A stretch of 64,000 bases of DNA from a virus, in the IMG/VR virus record IMGVR_UViG_3300046506_000220, positions 1 to 64,000 of that record. The stretch is one strand, 5' to 3'. The notes below the pieces were generated by a model. The model was given only the letters and a program-made list of their open reading frames with translations. It was not told the origin of the DNA and did no database searches. This document shows positions 4,573-37,543 of the stretch, one piece after another; position 1 is the first letter of the stretch; every line of letters begins with the position of its first letter. The translations under genes and the position numbers were made by a program.

Positions 4573-4890
4573 TCAGTGCGCCAGATGCATCGGCTGCGCC
4601 ACCAGGCGCACACCCAGGGCAGCGCAAACGCGGCTGATCGTTTCGAAGCGCGGTTCGCTGCCGGGTCGAAGAGCTTTGTACAACGCTTCGCGAGCGATGC
4701 CGGAATCCTTCGCAACCTGTGACATTCCCCGTGCACGGGCAATGTCGCCGATGGCAGCGGCCAGTAGTGCCGGGTCGTTCTCTTCAAGAACGGTTGTCAG
4801 GTATGCCGCCACTTCCTCTTCGCTGTTCAGATATTCGGCCGCATCGAACTCGGAGAGTTCGGAAACCTTGATTTTTCTGGTCATGGTCAA
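4573..4890 (-). CDS. Addiction-module antidote protein (HI1420-like, XRE HTH)
   Basis: FDAAEYL...IARARGMSQVAKDSGIAREALYKAL...PRFETI. Confidence 0.85.
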   Translation of the reverse strand: MTMTRKIKVSELSEFDAAEYLNSEEEVAAYLTTVLEENDPALLAAAIGDIARARGMSQVAKDSGIAREALYKALRPGSEPRFETISRVCAALGVRLVAQPMHLAH

Positions 4891-5186
4891 TCCTCCAGGG
4901 ATTTCGCCAGCGCAATGGCTCGCCGGATGTCGGCCTGCTGGGTGGACTTGTCACCGCCGCCCAGCATCACGATCATCAGTTCGCCGTGCTGGACGTAATA
5001 CAGGCGCCAGCCTGGCCCGAAATGTTCGCGCATCTCGAACACGCCTTCGCCTACAGGCTCCACGTCGCCCAGATTGCCAAGCTGGGCCTTGCGCAGCCGT
5101 TTGATGAGGCGCTGCCGTGTCAGCCCGTCCTTCAGGCCTTTGAGCCAATCGGAGAACTCATCGAGCTGTTTCACCGTGCAGGTCAT
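4887..5186 (-). CDS. Addiction-module killer protein (HI1419-like, RelE/HigB fold)
   Basis: FSDWLKGLKD...GNLGDVEPVGEGVFEMREHFGPGWRLYY...GGDKSTQQADI; toxin lies upstream of the antitoxin. Confidence 0.85.
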   Translation of the reverse strand: MTCTVKQLDEFSDWLKGLKDGLTRQRLIKRLRKAQLGNLGDVEPVGEGVFEMREHFGPGWRLYYVQHGELMIVMLGGGDKSTQQADIRRAIALAKSLED

Positions 5187-5194
5187 TAATCAAT

Positions 5195-5212
5195 TGTAAT
5201 CGAATGATTACA
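5195..5212. promoter_or_regulatory. Inverted-repeat operator of the TA operon
   Basis: TGTAATC-GAAT-GATTACA palindrome just upstream of the toxin start. Confidence 0.55.
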
Positions 5213-5333
5213 CAATGTCAATCCGGTGAGGTCGGCATTGGCCGTTGGCAGGTAGCGCCGGGGCGCTGGCAGGTTTTCTTTGTAATACAGGTTCCCGTTG
5301 TTCAGAATGGCGGCTATTCCCCTGGGCCTCCTG

Positions 5334-7109
5334 ATGAACCAGTACCTGCAGCAGCTTCTCGAGCGAGCCGAGAACCGCTGGTCCAATGACCGCGCGGGGA
5401 TGTCGTATGGCGACTGGATGTGCGAGAACACGCTGCTGGGTGACCGGCCCTTCAGTTTCAGGCGTTATCCGTTCCAGAAACAGATCGCCGACGACATGCA
5501 CGACAACCTGGACGTGGTCAAGCCCTCCCAGGTGGGGCTCACCGAGCTGCAGATCCGCAAGGTGCTGGCGTTCATCGCGCGCGTGCGCAACGTCTCGGTG
5601 ATCTACACGCTGCCCGATGAAAAGATGATGGAGCGCATCTCGGCCGGCCGCATCCGGCCGATCATCGACAACAACCACGTCTTCAACCTTGAATCGATCG
5701 GTGCCACCCGCCCGACCCGCACGCGGGAGATGATGCAGGTCGGCAAGTCGTTTCTGTATGTCACCGCGGCCGGCGAAGGGGCGGCGACGTCCATCTCGGC
5801 CGACATGGTGGTCAATGATGAGGTGGACCTCACCGACCAGTCGATCCTGGCCCTCTTCGGCTCACGCCTGCAGGGCTCCGACTACCGGATCAACCACCGC
5901 TTCTCGACGCCGACCTTCGAGGACTACGGCATCGACCAGACCTTCAGGGTCAGCGACCAGCACGAGTACCTGCTCAAGTGCGCGCACTGCAACCACTGGC
6001 AGGTGCCTGACTTTGAGCGCCCGTTCGTGCGTATCCCAGGACTTGCCGACAGTCTCGCTTTCGAGGAGATCGAGGAATCGATGATCGATGCCGGCGTGAT
6101 TGACCTTGATACCATCACGGTGTGCTGCGAGCACTGCGGCGCTCTGCTCAACCTGGGGGACCACGAGCACCGCGAGTGGGTCGCGAAGCATCCGTCGCGC
6201 AAGCACGCACGTGGCTACCGGGTGCGTCCGTTCACGACCGAACGGCTCGATCCGAAGTACATCCTCACGCAGCTCTTTCGCTACAAGCGCAAGGACTTCC
6301 TGCGCGGCTGGTACAACACCGTGCTCGGGCGCTCGCACACGGGCGGTGACCAGCGCCTGTCTGATGCCGATATCAACGCCGCGTTCACCGAGCTGATGCT
6401 CAAGGCACCGCCGCTTCCGGGGCTACCGGCGTGGATCGGCGTCGACGTCGGCCAGACCTGCCACATCGTGGTCGCTCAGGGCTATGACGTCAGCTCGATG
6501 CACGTGCGCGAGTTCATCACGGTGCCGGTGGCGCGTCTGATCGAGGAGCTGCTGCGCATCTGCGTTGAGTATCGCGTCGTGGCGGGTGCCTGTGACCGTC
6601 ACCCGTACACGCCGACGGCCGAGGCCGCGCGCGATGCGACGTACGGGCGCGTGCTGCCCAACGAGTACCGCGGCGCGAAGGAAATCAACCTGGTCAGGGA
6701 TGCGGCGGGCGAAACCATCTACATGCAGACCAACCGCACCATGCTGCTCGACGAGGTCGCGCGGGCGGTGCGTCTGCATCGCATCCGCTTCTCGGGCTAC
6801 GGTACCCAGAAGGCGGCCATCGTTGAACATCTGAAGGACATGGTCCGTAACGAGGAACCGGAGAAGGAAGCCGAATGGAAGAAGCTGAACGGCAACGATC
6901 ACTACTTTCATGCGCTCGGATTCATGTTGTCGGCCGTGAAGCTGCATACCACCAACGCTTCTGCCCTCTTCAACACCGAAACGCGCGCTGTCATCGCCCT
7001 GACTGGAGCTGATGTGGGTTTCAACGCAGCACCGGGTCTGGTGACTCACAAATCCACCACCAACAGGCTGATCTATGGCCACCACGCCCAAAACATCCTC
7101 CACCTCTAA
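5334..7109 (+). CDS. terL: Terminase large subunit (GpA-like)
   Basis: PFQKQI, KPSQVGLTE Walker A, DEVD Walker B, FSTPT, CxxC pairs, GVDVG and NDHYFHA nuclease motifs. Confidence 0.85.
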   Translation: MNQYLQQLLERAENRWSNDRAGMSYGDWMCENTLLGDRPFSFRRYPFQKQIADDMHDNLDVVKPSQVGLTELQIRKVLAFIARVRNVSVIYTLPDEKMMERISAGRIRPIIDNNHVFNLESIGATRPTRTREMMQVGKSFLYVTAAGEGAATSISADMVVNDEVDLTDQSILALFGSRLQGSDYRINHRFSTPTFEDYGIDQTFRVSDQHEYLLKCAHCNHWQVPDFERPFVRIPGLADSLAFEEIEESMIDAGVIDLDTITVCCEHCGALLNLGDHEHREWVAKHPSRKHARGYRVRPFTTERLDPKYILTQLFRYKRKDFLRGWYNTVLGRSHTGGDQRLSDADINAAFTELMLKAPPLPGLPAWIGVDVGQTCHIVVAQGYDVSSMHVREFITVPVARLIEELLRICVEYRVVAGACDRHPYTPTAEAARDATYGRVLPNEYRGAKEINLVRDAAGETIYMQTNRTMLLDEVARAVRLHRIRFSGYGTQKAAIVEHLKDMVRNEEPEKEAEWKKLNGNDHYFHALGFMLSAVKLHTTNASALFNTETRAVIALTGADVGFNAAPGLVTHKSTTNRLIYGHHAQNILHL

Positions 7110-8658
7110 AGGCCTGGGCGGCACCATCGGGTCGGCTCTGGCCATCCTGCTGCCACGGGCGAGAGCCGGCAAGGGCTTGTCGATGCCGGGGACCTACAAT
7201 CCCTCGGCACCCGACCAGCTGCTCACGCTGCCGACCTATCGCGAGCATCTGACCGATATCTTCGCGACCCGTACCGCGAATGACTCGCGCGCGCTGATCA
7301 AGTCGCTGTTTGTCCAGGATCCGGACATGTCCGCATCGGTCAACGCGTTCCTGACGGTGGCCAACACCGACATGGTGCCGATCGTGCGCGATGTGAACGG
7401 GATGATCGACCGCGACGGCATGAAGATCCTCAACGCGGTGATGGAAGCCTACGACACGCGCTTTGACTATACGAAGGGCTTCGACATGCGCCCGTCGTTC
7501 AAGGAGCTGGCCGAGAATTTCCGCTACCTGCTGCTCGCAGGTGGCTCGTTGCCCGTCGAGATGGTGCTCTCGAAGGCCTTCACGCCGGATGAATTCCGCA
7601 TGATCGACCCCGTCACGCTGTGGTGGAAGGAGACCCAGCCGGGTGTGTTCGATCCGATCCAGCGGACCAAGAATGGCCAGCTGATCGACCTGTCGATTCC
7701 GACCTTCTTCGTCAAGTTCTTCCGGCGCGATCCCACCAGCATCTACACCTACTCGCCGTTCGTCTCGTCGATCAACACGATCGCCGCGCGCCAGCAGGTC
7801 ATCAACGACCTGTACCGGATCATGCAGCTGACCGGCTACCCGCGCCTTGAAGTGAAGGTGCTGGAGGAGGTTGTCCTTAAAAATGCCCCGCTTGAGATCA
7901 GGACCGACCCGCTCAGGCAGAAGCAGTATGTTGAAAGTGCGCTCGCGCAGGTGACGGGCAACGTCTCGAACATCCGTCCCGACCAGGCCTTCGTGCACAC
8001 CGACTCGATCGACGTGGCGATGATCAACGACAGGCAGCCGGGGATGGCGCTGGACATTTCGAAGATCATCGACACGCTCAACTCACAGAACCAGGCGGGT
8101 TTGCGCACGATGGCGACCATCATCGGACGCGGCACCTCGGGCGTGAACACCGCCTCGGTTGAGGCGCGGGTCTTCAGCATGGTCGCCGAGGAGCTGAACC
8201 AGCCGATTGCCGATCTCTTCTCCGACATGCTGACGCTCGCGATCCGCCTGCAGGGCTCGCAGTCGGCGGTGACGGTCAGGTTCCGCCCGGTTGAGCTGCG
8301 CCCGCTCACTGAACTTGAACCGCAGCTGACGATGCGTGCCGCGCGCCTGAAGTCCGACCTGTCGCTGGGCATCATCGACGACGACGAGTACCACCTCGAG
8401 ATGTACGGCCGCATCCGTCCGGACAGCGCGCCGCTGCTGAGCGGCACGAACTTCATGCCGGGAACCAACGTGCAGGTGTTGACGGCCCAGGACATGCAGC
8501 TCCAGCCGAACACCGACCAGAGTGCATCCAACAGTACAACGAACCAGAACTCACCAGTGCCTAACGCGAAGAAGGTCAGCCCCAACTCCGATCCGCTGGG
8601 TCGATCGCTGACACCCAAAGGTTCGAAGTCCGCAACAAGTAACACGGTCAAACCGTAA
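7075..8658 (+). CDS. Portal protein
   Basis: 527 aa directly after terL; call rests on synteny and size. Confidence 0.7.
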   Translation: MATTPKTSSTSKGLGGTIGSALAILLPRARAGKGLSMPGTYNPSAPDQLLTLPTYREHLTDIFATRTANDSRALIKSLFVQDPDMSASVNAFLTVANTDMVPIVRDVNGMIDRDGMKILNAVMEAYDTRFDYTKGFDMRPSFKELAENFRYLLLAGGSLPVEMVLSKAFTPDEFRMIDPVTLWWKETQPGVFDPIQRTKNGQLIDLSIPTFFVKFFRRDPTSIYTYSPFVSSINTIAARQQVINDLYRIMQLTGYPRLEVKVLEEVVLKNAPLEIRTDPLRQKQYVESALAQVTGNVSNIRPDQAFVHTDSIDVAMINDRQPGMALDISKIIDTLNSQNQAGLRTMATIIGRGTSGVNTASVEARVFSMVAEELNQPIADLFSDMLTLAIRLQGSQSAVTVRFRPVELRPLTELEPQLTMRAARLKSDLSLGIIDDDEYHLEMYGRIRPDSAPLLSGTNFMPGTNVQVLTAQDMQLQPNTDQSASNSTTNQNSPVPNAKKVSPNSDPLGRSLTPKGSKSATSNTVKP

Positions 8659-25973: not shown

Positions 25974-28900
25974 ATGCACACCAACCGCACACTCCGGGGC
26001 GCAGGTGGGGGCGGGAGTGGTTCGAAGAACCCCACCCGCACCGATGACAACCTGTTCTCGCGCGACACGGTCGAGATCGTCCTGGCGCTCGGTGAAGGTC
26101 CGATCCGGGGACTGCGCAATGGCATGCAGTCGTTCCATGTCGGCGGCACGCCGCTGATGTCGGAGAATGGCTCGATCAACTTCGAGTCGTTCAATCTTGG
26201 CGTCAAGCTCGGGCACCCCGGCGAGTCCCCGATCAACTTCCAGCTCGGTGGCGAAGCCTCCAACACGGCCGTCGGCACGCGCCTCTTTCAGGGTACCTGG
26301 ATCACCCGCCAGACCGATGCGTCGCTTCGGAATGACATCGACCAGCTCCAGGTCCGGCTTCAGGTCAGCACGCTGTATGTCCAGAACGACAAGGGTTCGT
26401 TCAACAACACGGCGCACTTCCATATCCAGTACCGCGCCGCGTCGAGTCCGTCCTGGTCGGAATACAACGGCAGCGGCGGCATTGCCGTGACGGGCAAGAC
26501 CTCAAGCGGCGTGATCGTCGAGTATGCATGGAATGTGCCGCGTATCAACGATGACTGGGTGATCCGCGTTCTCAAGGACAATCCCGACAGCAGCACCACC
26601 GACTATTGCGACATCACCTGGGAAAGCTTCCAGATGGTTACCGCGAGCAACCGGACCTATAACCGGGTTGCCCTCCTCCATCTGGTTGCGCTCGCAACAA
26701 GCCAGTTCAGCTCGATCCCGGATTTTGCGGCGGAAGTTGACGGTCTCGAACTGCTGGTGCCGACCAACTACAACACCGACCTGCACACCTACGACGAAGG
26801 CACGCCGTGGAACGGGGGGTTCAAGCAGACCTGGACCAACAATAACGCCTGGGTTCTCTACAACCTGATCATGAACCCCGACTGGGGACTGGCGAAGTAC
26901 TACCCGTGGATCACCTGCAACCGCTTCGACTTCTACGATGCCGGTAAATGGTGTGATGTCATGGTCCCGGACGGGCGAGGCGGCTGGCAACCGCGCTACA
27001 CCTTCAACATGGAGATCAAGGACGCGCAAAGTGGCCTTGACATGCTGCAGTACGTGGCGGGCACCTTCGGCGCGGTGATCTTCGACGATGCGACCGGCAT
27101 GGTCCATCTGCGCGTCGACCGGTGGGAGGAACCGACCCTGCTGCTGACACCCGAGAACGTGTCACCTGAGGGTTTCAGCTACACCTTCACCGATATGGCC
27201 TCCCGCTATAACGACCTGGAGGTGCATTTCGTCAACCCGGACCTGGATTATCAGGGTGACCTGCGCAACGTCACTGACCCGAACCATATCGCGCTATACG
27301 GCCATATCCCGAACTCGTTCGAGGCGATTGGCTGTACCAGCGAGCATGAAGCGCTGCGCCGCGCCTACTACCGGCTGATCACGAACCTGACCGAGACCAT
27401 GACGGTCACGTGCAGGACCGCGCGGCTCGGACGCATCATTGACCCGTACAGGCCGATCTACATTGCCGACCCGACCACTGGTTATTCGACGGGTGGCCGG
27501 ATCAGGTCGATCGCCAACAACCTGATCTATCTGCGCGACCCGATCTATTTTACGGTCAACCAGAACTACAACCTGAAGCTTCAGGCGCGCGGCGGCCTGT
27601 GGACACTGGTGGTGGCGCCCGATATGGTCGGTAGTGCCTACCAGTTGCGCATCGTGAGTGGCGTCATCCCACCGGACATCCCCGACCGCACCGTCTTCAC
27701 GATCGAGGATAACGGCGGCTTTGGCATTGCGAAGCCCTTCCGGCCGCTCACGATCAGTCCCGCCGATGGCTCACCGAACGAATACGACATCACGGCTGTC
27801 GAGATCAACATCAACAAGCAGGCCGCGGCGGATAACTGCACACCCGTCGGTAGCACGCAGTATTCGTTCAAGAATCCGCTGATCCCCCCTCCCCCGACGA
27901 ATCTGGTCGCGGAGTCGGGCACGGCCATGCTGTTTCTCAGCCAGGACGGCACCATCATGGCGCGCATTCACGCGTCGTGGGACCCGCCTGGGACCGCCGT
28001 CATCAAGAACTACCTGATCCACTGGAAGGAGTCCAACCAGTCGACGTGGTTCGAGACGACCTCGATGAGCGAGAGTGTCATCCTGGCACCCTGCAAGACG
28101 GGGGTGCAGTACGACATCGTTGTCTGGGCAATCAGCAGCTTTGACTATCGTAGCGCCCAGCTCGCGATGTGGAACTACACCTGCCTGGGCAAGGATGAGC
28201 CGCCGAGTGACGTGCAGAACTTCAATGCCATCAAGCGCTCACAGGACATCCTGCTGAGATGGGATCCGATTGCGGATCTGGACCGCGCCGGCTATGAGCT
28301 GCGTCTGGGGTCCAACTGGGACACGGCGGTGGTGCTCGTGACCGACTATGCGGCCACCCAGTTTGCCTGGACCACCACGCAGGGGGGCAGCTACGACTTC
28401 CTGATCCGCGCCATCGACACCTCGCACAACTACTCCCGCCTGCCAACCCGCACGACGCTGCGGCTGTACGGCCCGTCTGCGGTGACCGGGGCGATTGCGA
28501 TCCAGTCAGGCAACCGGGTCGACCTGCGGTGGAATCCGAACCCGGAAGACAACATCACCGACTACGAGATCCGCGAGGGAGGCACGTGGGCGACCGCCGT
28601 GTTCGTGGCCAAGGTGAAGTCGACCACCTACGCCGCCACGGCGGGCGCGGCAGGTACGCGGATCTTCTGGCTGAAGGCGATCGCGTCGCCGGGGATCTAT
28701 TCAGACAAGGCGACGTTCGTGACCACCGACATCGCCCAGTCCGACAGCACCAACATCCTGTACTCGTCGGATGAGGTGGCCAAGGGCTTCACCGGGCCAA
28801 AGTTCAACATGGTGTCCTATGGCCAGTCGCTGCGCATGGATGATGGCAAGACGAGGTCTGAATACTTCTTCTCGGTGAACCTGGGAGATGTATTCCGTGC

Positions 28901-29573
28901 CCAGAACTCGCTGTTTATCGGCCTGAACGCGATCACCGATGACAAGACCACCTGGGCGCAGTCGACCTTCCCGTGGAATGACCCGATCGCCAACAAGCAG
29001 TGGTCCACACCGGGGGATATTGCCTCGATCGGCTACAGGATGGAGATCGCGACTTCATCCAGCCTGCCTTCAAACGTGCTGTACTCGTGGCGCCTGAATA
29101 ACGTCCTGACGTTTGCCGGCCCTGGTGAGGATGGCGCCGTCACGATCCAGCAGACGGTCACCTACAAGCCCAGCAAGTATGGTTCTGGCCTGTGGTGTCA
29201 GACTGCGCCGCTGCAACCGCTGCCCACGCGGGTTAACTTCAGCGTCAACATCCCGAACGTGTTCAGCACGTCGTTCTGGTTCGTTCCGGACGATCTGACC
29301 GACCACTTCCCGATCGTGAACCTGCAGGGTCGTGATGGCGTGTTCATCAAGATCGGTTATGCCGCGGCGACCCAGACGATCTATGCGCTTGACAACGCCG
29401 GCAGGAAGGTGTCGGTGCCGGCGAATATCGAGGCGGGTGAGCGCTACTTCATCGGCTTTTCGCAGAACGTTAACGAACGGATGATCTGGTTCGGCAAGGA
29501 CGACGGTTCCTGGGCACGCTCGTCGATTGCGCTTCCTGGCATCGGCGCCACCATCAACTACTCGCTCTACTGA
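25974..29573 (+). CDS. Tail tip / host-specificity protein J-like with FN3 domains
   Basis: GAGGG start; LGEGPIRGL, VPTNY, WTNNNAWVLY and CDVMVPDGRGG.QPRYTFN motifs. Confidence 0.9.
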   Translation: MHTNRTLRGAGGGGSGSKNPTRTDDNLFSRDTVEIVLALGEGPIRGLRNGMQSFHVGGTPLMSENGSINFESFNLGVKLGHPGESPINFQLGGEASNTAVGTRLFQGTWITRQTDASLRNDIDQLQVRLQVSTLYVQNDKGSFNNTAHFHIQYRAASSPSWSEYNGSGGIAVTGKTSSGVIVEYAWNVPRINDDWVIRVLKDNPDSSTTDYCDITWESFQMVTASNRTYNRVALLHLVALATSQFSSIPDFAAEVDGLELLVPTNYNTDLHTYDEGTPWNGGFKQTWTNNNAWVLYNLIMNPDWGLAKYYPWITCNRFDFYDAGKWCDVMVPDGRGGWQPRYTFNMEIKDAQSGLDMLQYVAGTFGAVIFDDATGMVHLRVDRWEEPTLLLTPENVSPEGFSYTFTDMASRYNDLEVHFVNPDLDYQGDLRNVTDPNHIALYGHIPNSFEAIGCTSEHEALRRAYYRLITNLTETMTVTCRTARLGRIIDPYRPIYIADPTTGYSTGGRIRSIANNLIYLRDPIYFTVNQNYNLKLQARGGLWTLVVAPDMVGSAYQLRIVSGVIPPDIPDRTVFTIEDNGGFGIAKPFRPLTISPADGSPNEYDITAVEININKQAAADNCTPVGSTQYSFKNPLIPPPPTNLVAESGTAMLFLSQDGTIMARIHASWDPPGTAVIKNYLIHWKESNQSTWFETTSMSESVILAPCKTGVQYDIVVWAISSFDYRSAQLAMWNYTCLGKDEPPSDVQNFNAIKRSQDILLRWDPIADLDRAGYELRLGSNWDTAVVLVTDYAATQFAWTTTQGGSYDFLIRAIDTSHNYSRLPTRTTLRLYGPSAVTGAIAIQSGNRVDLRWNPNPEDNITDYEIREGGTWATAVFVAKVKSTTYAATAGAAGTRIFWLKAIASPGIYSDKATFVTTDIAQSDSTNILYSSDEVAKGFTGPKFNMVSYGQSLRMDDGKTRSEYFFSVNLGDVFRAQNSLFIGLNAITDDKTTWAQSTFPWNDPIANKQWSTPGDIASIGYRMEIATSSSLPSNVLYSWRLNNVLTFAGPGEDGAVTIQQTVTYKPSKYGSGLWCQTAPLQPLPTRVNFSVNIPNVFSTSFWFVPDDLTDHFPIVNLQGRDGVFIKIGYAAATQTIYALDNAGRKVSVPANIEAGERYFIGFSQNVNERMIWFGKDDGSWARSSIALPGIGATINYSLY

Positions 29574-30047: not shown

Positions 30048-30083
30048 TTGGGGGCGCTCATCCGCGCCATTAAAATTTCGGCA
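30048..30083 (+). promoter_or_regulatory. Putative promoter of the fibre/radical SAM operon
   Basis: TTGGGG-N17-TAAAAT; the 13-mer TAAAATTTCGGCA is shared with 34038-34050. Confidence 0.5.
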
Positions 30084-30100
30084 AGCTAACGGACATCACC

Positions 30101-31603
30101 ATGCAAGGCTATACACAGATCCCCGACAGCGAGCGGGTTTCCGACTCGCTGATCCCGCTGCTCACGAATGATCAGGTGGCGATTTCGCGCAACGCGGGGT
30201 CGGCCTTCCCGACGTCCGGTCTGGTGGTGGGCATGCCGTATCTGGCGGTCAGTGAAAACAAGCTCTACCGGCTGACCAGCCTCGCGCCGCTGACCTGGGT
30301 CGTGGAGCTGGACTACAACATCGCCTATGCGACGGTGAATGATATTGCCGCGTCCAATGCGAACGCCAACCTGCGCATGTTGCGCAGCGGCGACCTGATG
30401 ACGGGTTTTCTGACCCTGTTCAATGATCCGACGCAGGCGCTGCACGCCGCGCCCAAGCGCTACGTCGACAACCAGATGGCCATCGCCGCGACCAGTGCGA
30501 ACGCCCGCGTGGCGCGCAGCGGCGACCTGATGACGGGCTACCTGACGTTGGTCGGGGACCCCTCCCAGCCCTATCACGCCGCGACCAAAAACTATGCTGA
30601 CTACCTGTACAACGCGCTGAACAGCGCGAAGGTGGGCCGCAACAGCGACACCTTCAACGAGGTTTACAACAACGGCTGGTACCGCTCGAATGGCGCGGTC
30701 GGCTGGTACAGCCAGAGCTATGGCGGCGGCATCTGGATGGCTGACCCCTACTATGTGAGCGTGTATGGCGGCAAGGGCTTTCGCACCGACACCCACACGC
30801 TGGAGATCGGCACGGGTGGCATCTGGACCGCGCGCTACGGCTGGCTTGAAAACCGCTTCGCCGGCAAGGGCGCGGAAGACCGGATCAACGGCACGGCGAC
30901 GGTTGACGCCGGTTCGGGCGGTGTCCTTGCCCCTGCGTCTTTCTACCTTGACCGTAGCGGCTCGGCCGCGCGCCTCGTGCGCGTCTACGGCAACTGCAAC
31001 TGCAACTGCGCGTGCACGTGCTTCCCGGCCGGCACGCCGATCCTGCTGGGCGATGGCAAAACGTGGATGTCCGTCGAACACATCCGCCCGGGCGACATGG
31101 TGATGACGCCGCTTGGGCCGATGCCCGTGCTCGAGGTGGAAACGCCTGTTCTCGGCGATCGCAGGATGCTCGGCTTTGCTGACGATCCGTTTGTACGCTG
31201 GACCGACGATCACGCATTCTGGACGCGCCGCGATGGTCGCGAAGGCCTCGCCGTGGCCGATCGCGCGAGCTTCATGCGTGGCGTCGAGCTGGGCGTCGTG
31301 CGCGGCCTTCCGGATAACGATGCGGTGCTCGAGCTTGACGATGAGCGCGACGAATTCGCGCACTTTATGGGCGGCTGGGTTCGCCAGAAGGTGGTCGATT
31401 TCACCGACGGGCACGCGCCCGATACGCGCGTGTACCTGCCGATCGTGGGCGGCTGTCACCTGATCATTGCCGCCGGCTACGTGATGAGCGGCGGCGCCAA
31501 CGGCTTTGACTTCGACTATCACTCGCTCGACTGGGATGCCATGCAGCGCCAGCGGTATTCCGGGAACTCACCCAGGGGGACTGCCCATGCTGCTGGTCCA
31601 TAA
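30101..31603 (+). CDS. Tail fibre with Cys-rich motif and C-terminal Hint domain
   Basis: Two RSGDLMTG.LTL..DP....HAA.K.Y.D fibre repeats; NNGWYRS..GW...YGGGIWM.D; GNCNCNCACT then CFPAGTPILLGDG..VEHIRPGDMV; WTDDHAFW; RVYLPIVGGCHLIIAAGYVM. Confidence 0.8.
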   Translation: MQGYTQIPDSERVSDSLIPLLTNDQVAISRNAGSAFPTSGLVVGMPYLAVSENKLYRLTSLAPLTWVVELDYNIAYATVNDIAASNANANLRMLRSGDLMTGFLTLFNDPTQALHAAPKRYVDNQMAIAATSANARVARSGDLMTGYLTLVGDPSQPYHAATKNYADYLYNALNSAKVGRNSDTFNEVYNNGWYRSNGAVGWYSQSYGGGIWMADPYYVSVYGGKGFRTDTHTLEIGTGGIWTARYGWLENRFAGKGAEDRINGTATVDAGSGGVLAPASFYLDRSGSAARLVRVYGNCNCNCACTCFPAGTPILLGDGKTWMSVEHIRPGDMVMTPLGPMPVLEVETPVLGDRRMLGFADDPFVRWTDDHAFWTRRDGREGLAVADRASFMRGVELGVVRGLPDNDAVLELDDERDEFAHFMGGWVRQKVVDFTDGHAPDTRVYLPIVGGCHLIIAAGYVMSGGANGFDFDYHSLDWDAMQRQRYSGNSPRGTAHAAGP

Positions 31604-32318
31604 ATCCCTCATTGCCACCGAGCTGACGGTTGAAGAGGCACAGCAGGTTACCGACATCGTCAACGTGCTGCCGACGGACACCGGCTTCGTGATGCAGTGC
31701 CCGTCGCTGAGCCTCTACTGGCAGTTCAACCTGGAGCTGGTCGAGCACGGTAACGACATCCTGTACCTGAACCGTACGCGCGCGGGCCAGTGGACGGTCA
31801 TGTGGGCGACCGACCTGCACGAGTCGAAAGACAGCTGGTCATCGGTGATGCTGCGCAAGAACCTGGATGAGTTCCGCCCGCTGGTAATGATCGGCATCAG
31901 CCCCGACAGGAAGGACTACACCGCGATCTTCTTCTGTAACACCCGTGAGCCGAACAATCCGCAGCCGCTGGTTGATGACACCACCGAGACGGGTGACATG
32001 TCGATGAAGCGCCTGATGCCCGGCATCGAGCCGCTGCTGCAACGTCACTGGGCGAAGCACAAGCTCCTGAAGGGTGTGAAGACCAATGACTCGCTGGCCG
32101 CGCTCGAAGCGCAGGTGGACCTGCTGACGTTCTGGCTGCTCGAGTACCTGCCCGAGGACAAGCGCCAGAAACTCCTTGACGCAGGGGTGCTGAAACTCAA
32201 GGATGAAGAGACACTTTTCGATGACGTGATCGCCTACAAGACCCGCCTGCGTGAACGGCAGGCGCTCTACCTTGCGACGCTGAGCCAGTATGACAACCTT
32301 CGTCCTGAAAACGGTTGA
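31587..32318 (+). CDS. Hypothetical accessory protein of the fibre/radical SAM operon
   Basis: AGGGGG RBS; overlaps both neighbours; short coiled coil LAALEAQVDLL. Confidence 0.65.
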   Translation: MLLVHKSLIATELTVEEAQQVTDIVNVLPTDTGFVMQCPSLSLYWQFNLELVEHGNDILYLNRTRAGQWTVMWATDLHESKDSWSSVMLRKNLDEFRPLVMIGISPDRKDYTAIFFCNTREPNNPQPLVDDTTETGDMSMKRLMPGIEPLLQRHWAKHKLLKGVKTNDSLAALEAQVDLLTFWLLEYLPEDKRQKLLDAGVLKLKDEETLFDDVIAYKTRLRERQALYLATLSQYDNLRPENG

Positions 32319-33654
32319 CGCGACGGGTACCGGGCGCGACTTCTTCTACAACAACATGCGCAGCACGCTGGTGGATGCCGTCACCGGCCGCAGCGTCGTG
32401 CCGCTCACCGAGGCGCCTGAGCGCGCGCCGTTCCAGCATCCAGGCCGCAAGGACCACACGATCCGCACGCTCAAGATCCAGCTCGGTCTCTCGTGCAACT
32501 ACAGCTGCGAGTATTGCAGCCAGCGCTTCGTGCCGCATGCGCAGCCGACCGGCCCCTACTCGGTTGACCAGTTCATCTCGCGCCTGTCGTGGAACGCGTC
32601 GCTCGCGGACGATGCGACGATCGAGTTCTGGGGGGGCGAGCCGCTCGTCTACTGGAAGACGCTGGTGCCACTGGTTGAGCAGCTGCGCATCCGCTATCCG
32701 GCGCTGACCCTGAAGATGATCACCAACGGCTCGCTGCTCGACCCGATGAAAGCAGGCTGGCTGATCTCGCAGGGTTTTCACATCGGCCTCTCGCATGATG
32801 GTCCTGGGCAGGTCGCGCGTGGTCCGGATCCGCTCGACGAACCCGCCACGCGCGAGGCGATCCTGATGTTGTACCGGCGACTGGCGCCACTTGGGCGCAT
32901 GTCGTTCAACACGATGCTGCACAGGGACAATCGGTCGCGAAAAGCGGTACAGGCGTTTTTCGTCGAGCTGACGGGCGATGAGCATGTGTCCATTGGCGAG
33001 GGCATGTTCGTCGATGCGTACGATGAGGGCGGCAAGGGCATGTCGATGCCGGATCCGCATGACCACATCGATTACCGCCGCCAGGCGTTCGAGGAGCTGC
33101 GCACCGGCCAGGCGCTGAACTTCATGAATGTCACGCAGAAGATCCAGGATTTCGCCCAGTCGGTTGCGACCGGCCGGCCGGCCTCGACGGTCGGCCAGAA
33201 ATGCGGATCCGATCGCGCCGACAGCCTGACGGTGACGCTCGAAGGCGATGTGCTGACCTGCCAGAATGTCTCGGCCGTGGCGGTGGCACCGAACGGCACG
33301 CCACATCGTGCGGGGTCGCTCGATGATCTGCAGTCGGTGCAGCTCACCTCGTCGCGTCACTGGTCGACGCGTTCGCACTGTTCGGGCTGTCCGGTTCTGC
33401 AGCTGTGCAAGGGCAGCTGCATGTTCCTCGAGGGGGACCTGTGGAACGTCACCTGTGACAGCGCGTATAGCGATAACGTGGTGTTCCTCGCAACCGCCCT
33501 GCTCGAGCTGACAGGCTGCACCCTGAAGCGCATCGAGCCGATGACGGGCAGTCTGCCTGAGCCCCGCCAGAACGTCTTTGGGCCGCTCGCCACGCCGCGG
33601 GCCGCACCCGCACCCCGCAAGATCATCTGGATCAGAACGGAGACACCATCTTGA
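32290..33654 (+). CDS. Radical SAM enzyme with SPASM domain
   Basis: CNYSCEYC (CxxxCxxC), FWGGEPL, ITNGSLL and SHDG; SPASM cysteines CG..GDVLTCQ..CSGCPVLQLCKGSC..C. Confidence 0.92.
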   Translation: MTTFVLKTVDATGTGRDFFYNNMRSTLVDAVTGRSVVPLTEAPERAPFQHPGRKDHTIRTLKIQLGLSCNYSCEYCSQRFVPHAQPTGPYSVDQFISRLSWNASLADDATIEFWGGEPLVYWKTLVPLVEQLRIRYPALTLKMITNGSLLDPMKAGWLISQGFHIGLSHDGPGQVARGPDPLDEPATREAILMLYRRLAPLGRMSFNTMLHRDNRSRKAVQAFFVELTGDEHVSIGEGMFVDAYDEGGKGMSMPDPHDHIDYRRQAFEELRTGQALNFMNVTQKIQDFAQSVATGRPASTVGQKCGSDRADSLTVTLEGDVLTCQNVSAVAVAPNGTPHRAGSLDDLQSVQLTSSRHWSTRSHCSGCPVLQLCKGSCMFLEGDLWNVTCDSAYSDNVVFLATALLELTGCTLKRIEPMTGSLPEPRQNVFGPLATPRAAPAPRKIIWIRTETPS

Positions 33655-33956
33655 ACGACGATCAGGCACAGCAACAGCAACTCGACCCGCAAGGTGTGCA
33701 GTTCACCATCCGGGCGCTGCAGGACCAGCGTAATGAGCAGGCTGATCGCGCAGCTCAGGCCACGGCTGTGGTCCAGCAACTGCAGGCCCGGATCGAGCAG
33801 CATGTGAAGCGCGATGCTCAACTGCAATCGCAGCTCGATGACATGAAAAACCAGCTTGAACTGACGAAGTCGGCACTGGCTGATGTGCAGACACGCGCGA
33901 CGGGCATGGGCGTGGTGAATGTTGCGATAAAGAGCGCGACCGGGGCGAATGGTTAG
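33651..33956 (+). CDS. Gln-rich coiled-coil hypothetical protein
   Basis: TTG start after GGAG, overlapping the radical SAM stop. Confidence 0.6.
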   Translation: MNDDQAQQQQLDPQGVQFTIRALQDQRNEQADRAAQATAVVQQLQARIEQHVKRDAQLQSQLDDMKNQLELTKSALADVQTRATGMGVVNVAIKSATGANG

Positions 33957-34013: not shown

Positions 34014-34050
34014 TTGGCCAAGCCCTGCCCCTCCCCGTAAAATTTCGGCA
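34014..34050 (+). promoter_or_regulatory. Putative promoter of the second fibre module
   Basis: TTGGCC-N18-TAAAAT followed by TTCGGCA. Confidence 0.45.
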
Positions 34051-34075: not shown

Positions 34076-37000
34076 ATGGCCAACAGCGGCGCCCCCACCA
34101 ACGCGGATGGTGCAACGGTCACGACCGTGCTGGCGCCCGTTGCCTCGACGACACCGCATGCGCCGATCGCGATGCTGTATGGTCTCGGCCCACCGATCAG
34201 CAGCATCGGGGTCGAGGGCGCGTTCTACCGGGACATGAACAACGATGACATGTACGGTCCCAAGGCGGGCGGTGTGTGGCCTGACGCGTACAGCATCCGT
34301 GGCTGGAAAGGTGACCAGGGTGTGCAGGGTGAGGTTGGGACGCTCAACCCGGACGACCAGGCCTACATCGACGCGGCGAAGACCGCTACGGATGCCAACC
34401 GCACCGCTGCTGCTGCCAGTCAGGCTGCTGCCGCGACCAGCGCAACCAGTGCGGGGACGTCAGCCACCAATGCGCATACGAGCGAAACGAACGCAGCTGC
34501 AAGTCAGGCCGCCGCCGTAACAAGCCAGGCCGCCGCCGACGCATCGAAGACGGCCGCGGCCGGCAGCGCGACGCAGGCCGACACCTCGAAAAATGCTGCG
34601 GCGACGAGTGCCGGCGCGGCGAGCACCTCGGCGACCGCTGCGGACCAGTCGAAGCAGGCCGCCGCGACGAGTGCTACCGCCGCAGCCGGCAGCGCTACCG
34701 CCGCTGATACGTCGAAGACGGCAGCGGACGCCAGCAAGACTGCTGCGGCCGGCAGTGCGACGGCAGCAGGCAACAGCGCGACGGCCGCCGCCCTTTCCGC
34801 AACCAGCATCGGTAACTCGGAAACGAATGCCCTCGCCTCGAAGAACGCGGCGGCTGCGAGCGCCAGCGCCGCCGACGTATCGAAGACGGCCGCTGCCGGC
34901 AGTGCCACCGCAGCCGCTACGAGTGCGACGGGCGCGGCCAGCTCGAAGACGGGCGCTGACAACAGTGCCACGGCAGCGGCTGGTAGCGCGACGGCAGCGG
35001 ATGCCAGCAAGACTGCTGCTGCCGGCAGTGCGACGGCAGCGGATGCCAGCAAGAGCGCTGCTGCGGGTTCCGCCAGTGCCGCAGCCGGCAGCGCCACAGC
35101 AGCGGACGCCAGCAAGAGCGCTGCCGCTCTTTCCGCCAGCAGCATCGGTAGCTCGGAAACGAACGCCCTGGCTTCGGCCAATGCAGCGGCGGCGAGTGCG
35201 AGCGCCGCCGACGTATCGAAGACGGATGCTGCCACGAGCGCGACGGAGGCTGGGTCGAGTGCGACGGCAGCAGCCACGAGCGCGACGGAGGCTGATGACA
35301 GCGCTGCTGCAGCAGCCGGTAGTGCAACGGCAGCGGATACCAGCAAGACGGCTGCCGATGCATCGAAGACAGCTGCTGCCGGTAGTGCAACGGCCGCTGC
35401 CGGCAGTGCGACGGCAGCAGGCAACAGCGCCGCCGCCGCGAGCGCCAGTGCCGCCAGCATCGGTAGCTCGGAAACCAATGCCCTGGCCTCGGCGGATGCA
35501 GCGGCAGCCAGTGCCAGCGCCGCCGACGTATCGAAGACGGCCGCTGCCGACAGTGCAACGGCCGCTGCCGGCAGTGCCGCCGCAGCCGCGACGAGTGCGA
35601 CGGCGGCAGCCACCTCGAAGACGGGGGCTGACAACAGCGCTGCTGCAGCGGATGCCAGCAAGACGGCTGCGGCAGGTTCCGCCAGTGCCGCAGCCGGCAG
35701 TGCGACAGCAGCAGGCGACAGCGCGACGGCGGCAGGCGACAGCGCGACGGCGGCAGGCGACAGCGCGACGGCCGCTGCCCTGTCGGCCACCAGCCTCGGT
35801 AACTCGGAAACGAACGCCCTGGCTTCGGCCAATGCAGCGGCTGCGAGCGCGACGGACGCAGCCGGCAGCGCGACGCAGGCCGATACATCGAAGCAGGCGG
35901 CGGCGACGAGCGCAGGTGCTGCGAGCAGCTCAGCCACGGCAGCGGACCAGTCGAAGCAGGCGGCAGCGACGAGCGCCACGGCCGCCGCCGCGAGTGCCAC
36001 CGCTGCTGACACCTCGAAGAACGCCGCAGCCGGCAGCGCGACAGCGGCAGGTAATAGCGCGACAGCGGCAGGCGATAGCGCCACGGCGGCAGGCAACAGC
36101 GCCGCCAGCATCGGCAACTCGGAGACGAACGCACTGGCCTCGGCTAATGCTGCGGCGGCCAGCGCGACGCAGGCCGATACATCGAAGCAGGTGGCGGCGA
36201 CGAGCGCGAGCGCAGCCGCGACGAGTGCGACGGCGGCAGCCACCTCGAAGACGGGGGCTGATAACAGTGCCACGGCAGCAGCTGGCAGCGCCACGGCAGC
36301 GGATGCGTCGAAGACGGCTGCTGCTGGTAGTGCCACGGCAGCAGGTAACAGCGCCACAGCAGCGGACGCCAGCAAGACTGCTGCGGCCAGCAGCGCCACG
36401 GCAGCGGCCACCTCCGTCGCCAGCATCGGTAACTCGGAAACGAATGCCCTGGCCTCGGCCAATGCCGCTGCGGCGAGCGCTGCTGCCGCCGATACATCGA
36501 AGAATGCTGCGGCGACGAGTGCAGGTGCAGCCGCAACTAGTGCGACGGGCGCGGCCACCTCGAAGACGGGGGCGGACAACAGCGCCACGGCAGCGGATGC
36601 CAGCAAGACTGCAGCGGCTGGTAGCGCCAGTGCTGCTGACACCTCGAAGACCGCTGCTGCCGGCAGCGCGACGGCAGCGGCCGGTAGCGCCACGGCGGCG
36701 GACACCAGCAGGACAGCTGCCGCAGGTTCTGCTACTGCAGCAGCTGACAGCGCCACGGCGGCAGGCAACAGCGCGACCGCGGCGGCTAACAGCGCATCGG
36801 GTGCAGCAACCAGCGCGAACAATGCCTCAGCAACGTTAGCGAACGCCCTGACGAAGGCTAATAACCTGTCCGATGTGGCTGATGCTGCCACCGCGCGCTC
36901 GAACCTCGGGCTGGGCACGGCAGCTACGCACCCCGTCGGGGACCTGCTCCAGACGGCGAACAACCTGTCCGACGTGACCCCCGCCACCGCGCGCTCGAAC

Positions 37001-37543
37001 CTCGGGCTGGGCACGGTTGCCACGCACCCCGTCGGGGACCTGCTCCAGACGGCGAACAACCTGTCGGACCTCCAGAGTGCATCGACCGCGCGCTCGAACC
37101 TCGGGCTGGGCACGGCAGCTACGCACCCGCTCACGGACTTCGTCCAGCCGACGAACAACCTGTCGGACGTGCAGAACGCGGGGACCGCGCGAGCCAACAT
37201 CGGGGCCAATGTGTACGACATTGCGCTGTCGATTGAAGGCAAGACAACCAACGCAGAGCTGGTGTTCAACTTTGTGGTGGGGCGTGCCTTCACCTGGCCC
37301 GCGAACCTTACCGGCTCCGCGGCGAAAGCGTCCGTTGCAGCAACCGCTTCAGCGACCTTCTCGATCACGCAGAACGGTGGCGCGATTGGCTCTTTCAACT
37401 TTGCAGCCAGTGCCACGGTTGCCACGTTCACTTTCGCTTCTCCCGTGACCTTTGCCGCAGGCGACCTGATCCAGATTACGGCTCCGGCGACCGCTGATAC
37501 CACCCTCGCGAATATCGGCGTGACCTTTGCAGGAACACGGTGA
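34076..37543 (+). CDS. Long side tail fibre (Stf-like, Ala/Ser/Thr repeats)
   Basis: About 800 aa of SKTAAAGSATAA and SETNALAS repeats; NNLSD..TARSNLGLG repeats near the C-terminus. Confidence 0.8.
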   Translation: MANSGAPTNADGATVTTVLAPVASTTPHAPIAMLYGLGPPISSIGVEGAFYRDMNNDDMYGPKAGGVWPDAYSIRGWKGDQGVQGEVGTLNPDDQAYIDAAKTATDANRTAAAASQAAAATSATSAGTSATNAHTSETNAAASQAAAVTSQAAADASKTAAAGSATQADTSKNAAATSAGAASTSATAADQSKQAAATSATAAAGSATAADTSKTAADASKTAAAGSATAAGNSATAAALSATSIGNSETNALASKNAAAASASAADVSKTAAAGSATAAATSATGAASSKTGADNSATAAAGSATAADASKTAAAGSATAADASKSAAAGSASAAAGSATAADASKSAAALSASSIGSSETNALASANAAAASASAADVSKTDAATSATEAGSSATAAATSATEADDSAAAAAGSATAADTSKTAADASKTAAAGSATAAAGSATAAGNSAAAASASAASIGSSETNALASADAAAASASAADVSKTAAADSATAAAGSAAAAATSATAAATSKTGADNSAAAADASKTAAAGSASAAAGSATAAGDSATAAGDSATAAGDSATAAALSATSLGNSETNALASANAAAASATDAAGSATQADTSKQAAATSAGAASSSATAADQSKQAAATSATAAAASATAADTSKNAAAGSATAAGNSATAAGDSATAAGNSAASIGNSETNALASANAAAASATQADTSKQVAATSASAAATSATAAATSKTGADNSATAAAGSATAADASKTAAAGSATAAGNSATAADASKTAAASSATAAATSVASIGNSETNALASANAAAASAAAADTSKNAAATSAGAAATSATGAATSKTGADNSATAADASKTAAAGSASAADTSKTAAAGSATAAAGSATAADTSRTAAAGSATAAADSATAAGNSATAAANSASGAATSANNASATLANALTKANNLSDVADAATARSNLGLGTAATHPVGDLLQTANNLSDVTPATARSNLGLGTVATHPVGDLLQTANNLSDLQSASTARSNLGLGTAATHPLTDFVQPTNNLSDVQNAGTARANIGANVYDIALSIEGKTTNAELVFNFVVGRAFTWPANLTGSAAKASVAATASATFSITQNGGAIGSFNFAASATVATFTFASPVTFAAGDLIQITAPATADTTLANIGVTFAGTR
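36860..37205 (+). repeat. About 100-bp tandem repeat (NNLSD..ARSNLGLG..ATHP) x4
   Basis: ACCGCGCGCTCGAACCTCGGGCTGGGCACGG recurs near 36890, 36986 and 37085; a diverged fourth unit follows. Confidence 0.85.

What the first reader, a model, noticed from the sequence alone, without database searches (positions are those of the whole stretch)
30101..33956. Candidate virion-maturation system: tail fibre with NCNCNCACT motif and Hint domain, plus accessory protein and radical SAM/SPASM enzyme
Seen: four overlapping genes behind their own promoter-like site, inside the tail module. Gene 1 is a tail fibre in which Y-G-N-C-N-C-N-C-A-C-T (the NCNCNCACT part is 30992-31018) directly precedes a Hint domain starting C-F-P-A-G-T. 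Gene 3 has CxxxCxxC and a full SPASM cysteine set. Established: radical SAM/SPASM enzymes are mainly peptide or protein maturases (sactionine/ranthionine thioether crosslinks, Cys-to-formylglycine conversion), often on Cys-rich substrates, and Hint domains self-cleave before their first Cys. Inference: autocleavage exposes the Cys/Asn motif at the fibre's C-terminus, where the enzyme crosslinks or modifies it, or builds a metal-binding tip. That would be RiPP-like chemistry on a structural protein, with the 243-aa gene as chaperone or recognition factor. I know of no characterised example.
Basis: partly seen in the sequence, partly recalled or inferred. Interest (0 to 1): 0.92.

Follow-up and report, generated by a model that had tools for sequence, protein, structure and literature searches.

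The report
Radical-SAM enzyme paired with cysteine-laddered phage fibre
This phage makes a tail fibre that ends in a run of asparagine-cysteine pairs capped by a self-cutting domain, and the iron-sulfur enzyme encoded two genes downstream almost never occurs without such a run, so phages probably modify these fibre tips chemically, a step described in no paper I found.

Summary
At 30101-33956 (+) four overlapping genes follow the J-like central fibre gene. They encode a 500-aa fibre (NCNCNCACT at 30992-31018, then a Hint-type domain), a 243-aa protein of no known family, a radical SAM/SPASM enzyme and a 101-aa coiled-coil protein. The promoter is not confirmed.

- From the enzyme: 21 of 23 viral/phage loci and 51 of 55 bacterial-genome loci with at least 3 kb upstream carry a same-strand ORF with an (X-Cys)n ladder. 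The ladder lies at the very C-terminus or directly before a Hint domain.
- From the ladder: 36 of 36 terminal-ladder ORFs with at least 3 kb downstream are followed by a homologue of the enzyme.

Homologues without Hint stop 0-12 residues after the ladder. Hint cleavage would therefore give the same mature end.

The non-Cys ladder positions are N 69%, A 12%, D 11% and Q 1.6%. These are the acceptors reported for the beta-thioether synthase NxxcB.

Best reading: the enzyme installs Cys thioether cross-links in the fibre tip. The enzyme-ladder link is strong; the chemistry is inferred. The 243-aa protein is clade-specific and its role is open. The coiled-coil gene is not part of the conserved core.

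This scan found and followed up the same system on at least eight other genomes. My eight literature searches found no description.

The parts
30101..31603 (+). Side-fibre-like protein, 500 aa. It has an N-terminal attachment domain shared with other ladder fibres, a Gly-rich fibre body, a conserved tip module (IWTA-x-YGWL ... L-x-x-S-G-x-x-v-x-L), the Asn-Cys ladder and a Hint domain.
   Evidence: ORF. phrog_16641 tail fiber, E 5.6e-6. Full-length homologues in Achromobacter phages JWF and 2-1, 49-51% identity. Alignment of 26 ladder proteins.
30992..31018 (+). Asn-Cys ladder N-C-N-C-N-C-A-C-T (residues 298-306); the predicted mature C-terminus and candidate substrate.
   Evidence: C301, C303 and C305 are invariant. 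N298, C299, N300, N302 and C307 are at least 90% conserved in 26 sequences whose mean column identity is 35%. Composition of 119 distinct ladders.
31019..31600 (+). Hint-type autoprocessing domain: Cys1 = C307, C-F-P-A-G-T; block B T-D-D-H at 31202-31213. It has no terminal His-Asn plus nucleophile. A conserved F-D-Y...W stretch lies near its end.
   Evidence: Profile of 11 homologues against PDB: 8w20 E 4.1e-10, PI-SceI E 9.3e-7, gp41-1 intein E 4e-4. 11 of 11 members hit Pfam Hom_end_hint at E<=1, best 1.1e-8. The window's own sequence is only Hint_2 E 0.03.
31587..32318 (+). 243-aa accessory protein (family G5) of unknown function. N-terminal beta-rich domain plus C-terminal helical bundle, with the conserved motif A-K-x-K-L-L ... 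L-A-A-L-E-x-Q-V-D-L-L.
   Evidence: No Pfam, NCBIfam or PHROG hit. 37 clusters in 5.8 billion proteins, all unnamed. Model pLDDT 78.8. No clear fold match. Lies between ladder ORF and enzyme in 18 of 73 loci.
32290..33654 (+). Radical SAM/SPASM enzyme, 454 aa. CX3CX2C lies at 32494-32517 and the seven-Cys SPASM region at 33202-33456. About 55 residues precede the radical SAM core, too few for a full RRE.
   Evidence: phrog_1802 E 6.4e-57. TIGR04085 SPASM 30.2 bits, cut-off 27; weak hits to PapB, QhpD and anSME models. Invariant Cys. PDB by profile: TigE 8VPO E 1.3e-16, CteB 5wgg 2.6e-12, anSME 4k37 6.3e-11. 538 representatives at E<=1e-30.
33651..33956 (+). 101-aa coiled-coil protein, translationally coupled by a 4-nt overlap. 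Probably not part of the conserved system.
   Evidence: Only coiled-coil-type weak hits. tblastn relatives (E 4e-4 to 4e-8) in 11 of the 27 loci searched, L004-L014, all of the closest clade.

Best explanation
This is a fibre-tip maturation module of an 82.8-kb JWF-like siphophage. Each step is marked as shown or inferred.

1. Shown: the fibre is made as a precursor whose tip module ends in an Asn-Cys ladder, followed by a Hint domain.
2. Inferred from Hint chemistry and from Hint-less homologues: the Hint domain cleaves at T306|C307 by N-to-S acyl shift and hydrolysis. This leaves ...NCNCNCACT as the free C-terminus, the same kind of end that Hint-less homologues encode directly.
3. Link shown by comparative genomics, chemistry inferred: the radical SAM/SPASM enzyme acts on the ladder. 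The most likely mechanism follows known enzymes. A ladder Cys thiolate binds the open iron of the first auxiliary cluster. The 5'-deoxyadenosyl radical abstracts a hydrogen from a neighbouring residue (Asn, Asp or Ala; C-beta as in NxxcB/PapB, or C-alpha as in sactisynthases). A C-S thioether forms. This repeats along the 3-9 X-Cys units.
4. Inferred: the result is a reduction-proof covalently stapled tip, within one chain or between the chains of the fibre. It is made in the cytoplasm, where disulfides cannot form.

The 243-aa protein is a clade-specific helper (chaperone or adaptor); its role is open.
For: Enzyme to ladder:
- 21 of 23 enzyme-seeded viral/phage loci with at least 3 kb upstream have a same-strand ladder ORF.
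- The two others are RSP15, whose fibre fragment ends ...N-C-Q-C-G-N, and L016, where the contig ends 229 nt before the expected position.
- 51 of 55 bacterial-genome loci also have one, and L201 has a ladder with an 18-aa acidic tail.

Ladder to enzyme:
- Of 120 viral stretches encoding NCNCNCxC, 60 are ORFs of at least 90 aa with the ladder at most 10 aa from the stop or before a Hint.
- 36 of 36 of these with at least 3 kb downstream have the enzyme downstream on the same strand.
- Of the other 60 stretches, 3 have it.

De-replicated at 70% enzyme identity: 38 of 42 assessable clusters carry a ladder (this pool includes ladder-seeded loci).

Position: the ladder is terminal (tail 0-12 aa) or directly precedes Hint in 17 of 119 distinct ladders.

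Chemistry:
- The Cys columns are invariant. X positions are N 68.9%, A 12.1%, D 11.3%, Q 1.6%. NxxcB's native acceptor is Asn and it tolerates Ala, Gln and Asp (PMC9389541, section 6 passages).
- Seven SPASM Cys, as in CrpC, leave one auxiliary iron free for a substrate Cys (PMC13692751 Discussion).
- The nearest non-phage relatives lie in RiPP-like clusters.
Against: - No mass or structural data exist; the chemistry rests on analogy.
- The closest solved enzyme by sequence is TigE, a cyclopropylglycine (C-C bond) synthase, not a thioether synthase. All NCBIfam hits are far below their cut-offs.
- Small residues at X could reflect packing in a beta-strand rather than acceptor chemistry.
- An alternating X-Cys strand also resembles the metal-binding HxH strands of T4-type fibre tips (recalled, not tested).
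- Many loci add a 2OG-Fe(II) oxygenase-like gene (26 of 73), so the final product may be more complex.
- Four genome loci lack a ladder by my rule.
- Virion incorporation of this fibre and Hint cleavage are not shown.
Confidence: 0.6

Rival explanations
1. The ladder is a metal- or iron-sulfur-binding tip: Cys from three chains face the fibre axis. The enzyme does something other than thioether formation, for example another Cys or Asn modification that tunes metal binding, or Cys-to-formylglycine or dehydro-residue conversion.
For: The strict alternation X-Cys puts all Cys on one face of a strand. Extra terminal Cys (tails C, CGC, CGCC in 22 of 119 ladders) suit a cap. The anSME model and structure align over the whole length (65-377, E 1e-10; 72-380). 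The CrpA paper also raises metal binding as a possible function (PMC13692751 Discussion).
Against: A metal site needs no dedicated radical SAM enzyme, yet the pairing is nearly obligate. The anSME motif C/S-x-P/A-x-R (recalled) is absent. Asn is preferred at X (69%) where any small residue would serve a metal site.
Confidence: 0.17
2. The ladder proteins are not (only) structural. The module makes a RiPP-like secreted or lysis-released product, and in this phage the ladder domain has merely been fused to a fibre.
For: Small ladder proteins exist: 65-134 aa in L003, L017-L019 and L141, the last with three in tandem. Relatives of the enzyme lie beside a C39 ABC exporter/HlyD and beside YcaO.
Against: Most ladder ORFs are 200-620 aa and follow J-like and fibre genes. 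They share the fibre N-terminal domain. The small ones follow a fibre that ends in a Peptidase_S74 chaperone domain. No exporter or leader protease lies in the phage loci.
Confidence: 0.08
3. The Hint domain does more than cleave. Its thioester ligates the ladder end to another molecule (a second fibre protein, a lipid or a sugar), and the enzyme prepares or follows that ligation.
For: The Hint is of the Hedgehog/BIL type without C-terminal splice residues. It has a conserved F-D-Y...W tail of unknown role.
Against: 102 of 119 distinct ladders have no Hint and simply end. Ligation therefore cannot be essential to the system.
Confidence: 0.07
4. The enzyme acts on nucleotides or cofactors, as in phage DNA hypermodification, and sits beside the fibre by chance of synteny.
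For: Phages do use radical SAM enzymes on DNA: M6 gp53 (PMC8989533, passages).
Against: That enzyme is spore-photoproduct-lyase-like, and 'SPASM' does not occur in the paper's text. The window's enzyme hit no Pseudomonas (M6) or Salmonella (ViI) phage record; the 24 matching records are Campylobacter, Ralstonia, Achromobacter and Thermus phages. The pairing with ladders holds across siphoviruses, an Ackermannviridae phage (RSP15) and the jumbo phage RP12 with different gene orders.
Confidence: 0.02

Closest known systems
NxxcB / NxxcA (streptococcal radical SAM RiPP; Cys-to-Asn beta-thioether)
   Same: A radical SAM/SPASM-type enzyme and repeated Asn/Cys motifs. The X positions of the phage ladders (N, A, D, Q) are the acceptor residues NxxcB uses or tolerates (PMC9389541 section 6 passages).
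   Different: The spacing is N-x-x-C, not N-C. The substrate is a short leader-bearing peptide, not the end of a 500-aa structural protein. There is no Hint.
CrpC / CrpA of Methanococcus voltae (PMC13692751; abstract, sections 12 and 14 read)
   Same: A SPASM radical SAM enzyme with seven SPASM Cys. It installs thioether (ranthionine) links in the C-terminal Cys-rich part of a full-size protein.
   Different: CrpC has an RRE; the window's enzyme has only about 55 residues before its core. The CrpA motifs are C-A-G-M, C-A-V-D and similar, not N-C ladders. The host is archaeal and cellular; 'phage' does not occur in the text.
QhpD / QhpC (quinohaemoprotein amine dehydrogenase maturation)
   Same: A radical SAM/SPASM enzyme that cross-links Cys to Asp/Glu within a protein subunit (recalled). 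The NCBIfam model TIGR03906 hits at E 2.8e-11.
   Different: 42.8 bits against a cut-off of 453. The match covers only the radical SAM core (residues 53-175). The substrate and context differ.
TigE (PDB 8VPO), CteB (5WGG), anSME (4K37): closest solved structures by sequence profile
   Same: Radical SAM core plus SPASM domain: E 1.3e-16, 2.6e-12 and 6.3e-11.
   Different: TigE makes methylcyclopropylglycine and has an N-terminal RRE, residues 3-85 (PMC10878394 passage). CteB makes gamma-thioethers and anSME makes formylglycine (the last two recalled). The three chemistries differ, so sequence similarity does not fix the reaction.
Hedgehog/BIL-type Hint domains and the Peptidase_S74 intramolecular chaperones of phage fibres
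   Same: A C-terminal self-cleaving domain removed from a fibre precursor. In related loci the fibre ahead of a small ladder protein ends in Peptidase_S74.
   Different: Here the cleaving domain is a Cys-nucleophile Hint, not a Ser-Lys S74 domain. It follows a modified-peptide-like ladder.

Membership tests
Radical SAM superfamily | CX3CX2C motif for the SAM-binding [4Fe-4S] cluster | tested here: met
   C69-x3-C73-x2-C76 is invariant in 29 sequences. PF04055 scores 25.9 bits, below its 29.5 cut-off, for the window's protein. PF13353 scores 22.9 against a cut-off of 22.
SPASM-domain radical SAM enzymes | Seven-Cys motif C-x(9-15)-G-x4-C ... C-x2-C-x5-C-x3-C ... C for two auxiliary clusters (the motif as written is recalled) | tested here: met
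   C305 ... G319-x4-C324 ... C364-x2-C367-x5-C373-x3-C377 ... C389 are all invariant. The first spacing is 18 rather than 9-15. TIGR04085 scores 30.2 bits against a cut-off of 27.
Thioether-forming RiPP maturases (sacti-/ranthisynthases: PapB, CteB, NxxcB, QhpD) | Score above the family model's cut-off | tested here: not met
   PapB NF047865 scores 46.1 bits against 340, QhpD 42.8 against 453, and the SCIFF maturase 23.4 against 425. It is not a member of any named equivalog. This does not bear on whether it works like one.
Thioether-forming RiPP maturases | Cys-containing substrate encoded beside the enzyme | tested here: met
   (counts in the report).
Thioether-forming RiPP maturases | Product with -2 Da per link and loss of free thiol | not testable with these tools
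   Needs mass spectrometry.
RRE-dependent RiPP systems | PqqD-like RRE domain in the enzyme or in a partner protein | tested here: inconclusive
   The enzyme has about 55 residues before the core, whereas TigE's RRE spans residues 3-85. The accessory model gave no clear fold match.
Hint / intein superfamily | Block A with nucleophilic Cys1 and block B T-x-x-H | tested here: met
   C-F-P-A-G-T and T-D-D-H. C1, T62 and H65 are invariant in 11 sequences. The profile hits inteins at E 4e-10 to 4e-4. Every single-sequence Pfam score for the window's protein is below cut-off.
Hint / intein superfamily | Hint fold of the whole domain | tested here: inconclusive
   The fibre model had mean pLDDT 36.8. 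Only the first 71 or so profile positions align to solved Hints.
Splicing inteins | C-terminal His-Asn followed by Cys/Ser/Thr and a C-extein | tested here: not met
   The domain ends the protein and no conserved H-N is present. Cleavage-only of the Hedgehog/BIL type is inferred.

The most novel reading that the evidence does not exclude
Phages use a dedicated radical SAM enzyme to turn the C-terminal Asn-Cys ladder of a receptor-binding fibre into a run of closely spaced thioether rings. These may join adjacent residues (thiomorpholine-like or thiazepane-like backbone rings, by analogy with the Thr-Gln morpholine of TqqB) or join the three chains. This would be a new post-translational modification of virion proteins. 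It would replace disulfides in particles assembled in the reducing cytoplasm and would be needed for adsorption. The family would span hundreds of phage lineages, with optional Hint capping and oxygenase tailoring.
Probability: 0.3. Interest if true: 0.95.

Novelty: new variant of a known kind. Interest (0 to 1): 0.85.

Why it matters
Enzymatic, RiPP-type cross-linking of a virion structural protein would be a new principle in phage assembly. It would mean covalent, redox-proof stabilisation of a host-recognition tip, made before lysis.

The family is large: 538 representatives at 50% identity with E<=1e-30. It sits in phages and prophages of Burkholderia, Achromobacter, Ralstonia, Limnohabitans and many MAG lineages.

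The system gives enzymologists a natural protein substrate with a very simple repeat. It gives phage biologists a testable determinant of fibre stability or host range. It also offers a possible tool for stapling protein ends.

Tried and rejected
- Structure of the whole fibre: mean pLDDT 36.8, so it was unusable. The Hint fold and the ladder geometry could not be modelled, and both fold jobs were then spent.
- Fold of the accessory protein: Foldseek against PDB gave nothing at E<=0.001. VIA-align wide gave a best Z of 6.4, to generic helical hairpins. The N-terminal domain matched SPP1 gp22 (2xc8) at Z 5.3, rmsd 3.4 over 94 residues. No family stood out.
- ESM Atlas: no usable hit; its own model of this protein is poor.
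- Complex prediction of enzyme + fibre residues 176-306 + accessory protein (as partner) + three 4Fe-4S clusters: 'no answer', score 0.00 in both runs, controls not run. This is no evidence either way.
- Profile-profile comparison of the accessory families G1, G5, G4 and G16: no similarity, probabilities 0.1-0.4%. I cannot say that G5 and G1 are homologous, although they occupy the same place.
- Fused forms of the accessory protein: none among longer proteins (weak evidence).
- Pfam on G1, G16 and three further cluster genes of L017: nothing at E<=0.05.
- The fibre profile against PDB found only the Hint part.
- Nucleotide-modification reading: rejected.
- Literature: eight searches gave no paper on a radical SAM enzyme acting on a phage fibre. 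The RP12 paper only lists the genes.

Full report
WHAT IS THERE

The window is the first 64 kb of an 82,832-base virus record rated complete. Its tail module and the four genes of the finding are syntenic with Achromobacter phage JWF. The genes on the + strand run as follows:
- A J-like central fibre, 25974-29573 (phrog_31, E 1e-149).
- A 153-aa protein.
- The 500-aa fibre, 30101-31603.
- A 243-aa protein, 31587-32318.
- A 454-aa radical SAM/SPASM enzyme, 32290-33654.
- A 101-aa coiled-coil protein, 33651-33956.
- A 1155-aa Ala-rich fibre, from 34076.

The four genes of the finding overlap by 17, 29 and 4 nt. The fibre reads ...VYG-NCNCNCACT-CFPAGT..., and the ladder sits exactly at 30992-31018. 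The long ORFs on the opposite strand (for example 30086-31522 and 32197-33669) are shadow frames of G+C-rich coding DNA.

The claimed promoter is not found by the consensus scan. Only an 8-of-12 match, TTGGGG-17-TAAAAT, lies at 30048-30076.

THE ENZYME
- It has the CX3CX2C motif and seven further invariant Cys in the SPASM pattern.
- It passes the SPASM domain model (30.2 bits against a cut-off of 27). It falls far below every named maturase model: PapB 46 bits against 340, QhpD 43 against 453, anSME 41 against 349.
- It belongs to phage family phrog_1802 (E 6e-57).
- The family is large: at least 2,696 clusters at 90% identity with E<=1e-20 among the 8,000 candidates scored, and 538 representatives at 50% identity with E<=1e-30.
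- By profile, the closest solved structures are TigE (8VPO, E 1.3e-16), CteB (5WGG) and anSME (4K37). TigE makes a cyclopropyl ring and carries an RRE in residues 3-85 (PMC10878394 passage). The window's enzyme aligns from about residue 45 onward, so it has no room for a full RRE. Sequence similarity does not fix the reaction.

THE HINT DOMAIN

Alone, the window's sequence scores below Pfam cut-offs (Hint_2 E 0.03). A profile of 11 homologous domains gives more:
- It matches an intein-type domain in PDB 8w20 at E 4e-10 over positions 2-71, which includes the T-x-x-H block.
- It matches PI-SceI at E 9e-7 and the gp41-1 intein at E 4e-4.
- All 11 members hit Hom_end_hint at E<=1, best 1e-8.
- C1, T62 and H65 are invariant.
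- There is no C-terminal His-Asn/nucleophile and nothing downstream to splice to. N-terminal cleavage only is inferred.

The fold itself could not be checked.

THE CENTRAL TEST: ENZYME TO LADDER

I seeded with the enzyme in IMG/VR (24 loci) and added three phage records.
- 23 of these 27 loci have at least 3 kb upstream.
- 21 of the 23 carry a same-strand ORF with an (X-Cys)n ladder of three or more units containing N-C.
- The exceptions are RSP15, whose 'side tail fibre fragment' ends ...N-T-N-C-Q-C-G-N, and L016. L016 has the gene order of L017/L018, but its contig ends 229 nt before the expected ladder gene.

- 51 of 55 loci with at least 3 kb upstream have a terminal ladder ORF upstream. 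So do 7 of 25 loci with less DNA.
- The opposite strands of all 80 loci hold 2 such ORFs.
- The four misses are as follows. L201 has a ladder followed by an 18-aa acidic tail, right before the enzyme. In L189 the ORF at the fibre's place looks disrupted. L218 and L224 are not phage loci: the enzyme (42% and 39% identity) lies beside a C39-peptidase ABC exporter and HlyD, or beside a YcaO-nitroreductase fusion, an ATP-grasp and a GNAT.

THE CENTRAL TEST: LADDER TO ENZYME

- In 60 stretches the match lies in an ORF of at least 90 aa, with the ladder at most 10 aa from the stop or before a Hint of about 170 aa.
- 36 of 36 of these with at least 3 kb downstream have a homologue of the enzyme downstream on the same strand. 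So do 9 of 24 with less DNA.
- Of the other 60 stretches (short or internal matches, mostly chance), 3 have the enzyme. Two are small true ladder proteins and one is cut by a contig end.

Many loci are near-duplicates. After clustering the enzymes at 70% identity, 38 of 42 assessable clusters carry a ladder. That pool includes the ladder-seeded loci, so the two seeded counts above are the cleaner figures.

ANATOMY OF THE SYSTEM ACROSS 73 LOCI

The gene order is: ladder protein, then family G1 (41 loci) or G5 (18 loci, the window's 243-aa protein), then optionally other genes, then the enzyme.
- The optional genes are G4 (26 loci; 2OG-Fe(II) oxygenase-like, phrog_81 E 9e-9, Pfam below cut-off), G16 (11 loci), further unknowns, or a second radical SAM gene.
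- G1 and G5 show no detectable similarity.
- The window has the minimal set.
- The 101-aa gene has relatives only in 11 of the 27 loci searched (L004-L014, the closest clade). In other loci the enzyme is followed by lysis-type genes.

Ladder proteins range from 65 to about 620 aa. Most share the fibre N-terminal domain and a tip module with the motif I-W-T-A-x-Y-G-W-L. In L017-L019 and L201 a small ladder protein follows a fibre that ends in a Peptidase_S74 chaperone domain.

WHAT THE LADDER SAYS

Among 119 distinct ladders:
- There are 3-9 X-Cys units.
- 17 ladders are followed by a Hint. The rest end after 0-12 residues, often with extra Cys.
- X is N 68.9%, A 12.1%, D 11.3%, Q 1.6%, C 1.6%, and others about 1% or less.

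The Cys columns are invariant in an alignment whose mean column identity is 35%. A review of streptococcal radical SAM RiPPs states that NxxcB's native beta-thioether acceptor is Asn. It adds that Ala, Gln and Asp are tolerated, while Cys cannot be replaced (PMC9389541, section 6 passages). PapB links Cys to the carbon next to a carboxylate, including the C-terminal one (PMC12373016 abstract). CrpC shows that a seven-Cys SPASM enzyme can install such links in a full-size protein (PMC13692751, sections 12 and 14). These parallels make repeated Cys thioether formation the best-supported chemistry, but they are analogies.

THE ACCESSORY PROTEIN
- It has no family in Pfam, NCBIfam or PHROGs.
- It has 37 unnamed relatives and no fused forms.
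- The model (pLDDT 78.8) shows a beta-rich N-terminal domain and a helical C-terminal bundle, without a convincing structural relative.
- Its place directly after the fibre gene is where tail-fibre assembly chaperones usually lie (established knowledge).

EARLIER WORK AND LITERATURE

The scan's index shows that the same system was noted and followed up on at least eight other genomes, with the same general reading. I took from it two paper leads (CrpC, NxxcB) and checked them myself. My eight literature searches found no description of a radical SAM enzyme acting on a phage fibre. Supplements were closed.

VERDICT
- The functional coupling of enzyme and ladder is very well supported, about 0.9.
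- Hint-mediated exposure of the ladder is a sound inference.
- Thioether cross-linking is the most likely chemistry, about 0.55-0.6.
- The roles of the 243-aa and 101-aa proteins are open.

Noticed in passing
L218 (Sulfuritalea MAG) 1347-7164; L224 (Polaromonas MAG) 1-7927: The nearest non-phage relatives of the enzyme (42% and 39% identity) sit in RiPP-like clusters. One has a C39-peptidase ABC exporter plus HlyD. The other has a YcaO-nitroreductase fusion, an ATP-grasp, a GNAT and an RTX-type protein. I found no Cys-ladder precursor in them.
   Followed up: partly
L141 and L142 (IMG/VR), three ORFs just upstream of G1: Three tandem small ladder proteins (95, 92 and 109 aa) precede one enzyme, like the multiple precursors of a RiPP cluster.
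   Followed up: no
L003 (Ralstonia jumbo phage RP12) 999-1196 and 2153-7263: A 65-aa ORF ending in N-C-N-C-N-C-A-C-T-R-G-S-L lies about 1 kb upstream of the first of three clustered radical SAM genes, and about 5 kb upstream of the one that matches the window's enzyme. The RP12 paper only lists these genes.
   Followed up: partly
26 of 73 related loci, e.g. L015 5198-5824: A 2OG-Fe(II) oxygenase-like gene (phrog_81, E 9e-9) often lies between the ladder gene and the enzyme, which hints at further tailing of Asn/Asp. It is absent from the window.
   Followed up: partly
window 34076-37543 (+), with 34014-34043: A 1155-aa fibre made largely of Ala/Ser/Thr repeats (S-A-T-A-A-x-x-S-K-T-A-A-A-G type). 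It is preceded by the only promoter-like site the scan found in the region, TTGGCC-18-TAAAAT.
   Followed up: no
P0289 (800 aa, from the representative library): A tandem fusion of two radical SAM domains of this family. It matches loci such as L024/L025, where two such genes are adjacent.
   Followed up: partly
L189 (Comamonadaceae MAG) 4735-5778: At the place of the ladder fibre, the ORF after the conserved upstream gene ends in unrelated sequence. This could be a frameshift, an assembly error or a decayed prophage.
   Followed up: no
window 31019-31600, last 30 or so residues of the Hint part: A nearly invariant F-D-Y...W stretch follows the last Hint block in all close homologues. Its role is unknown.
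   Followed up: no
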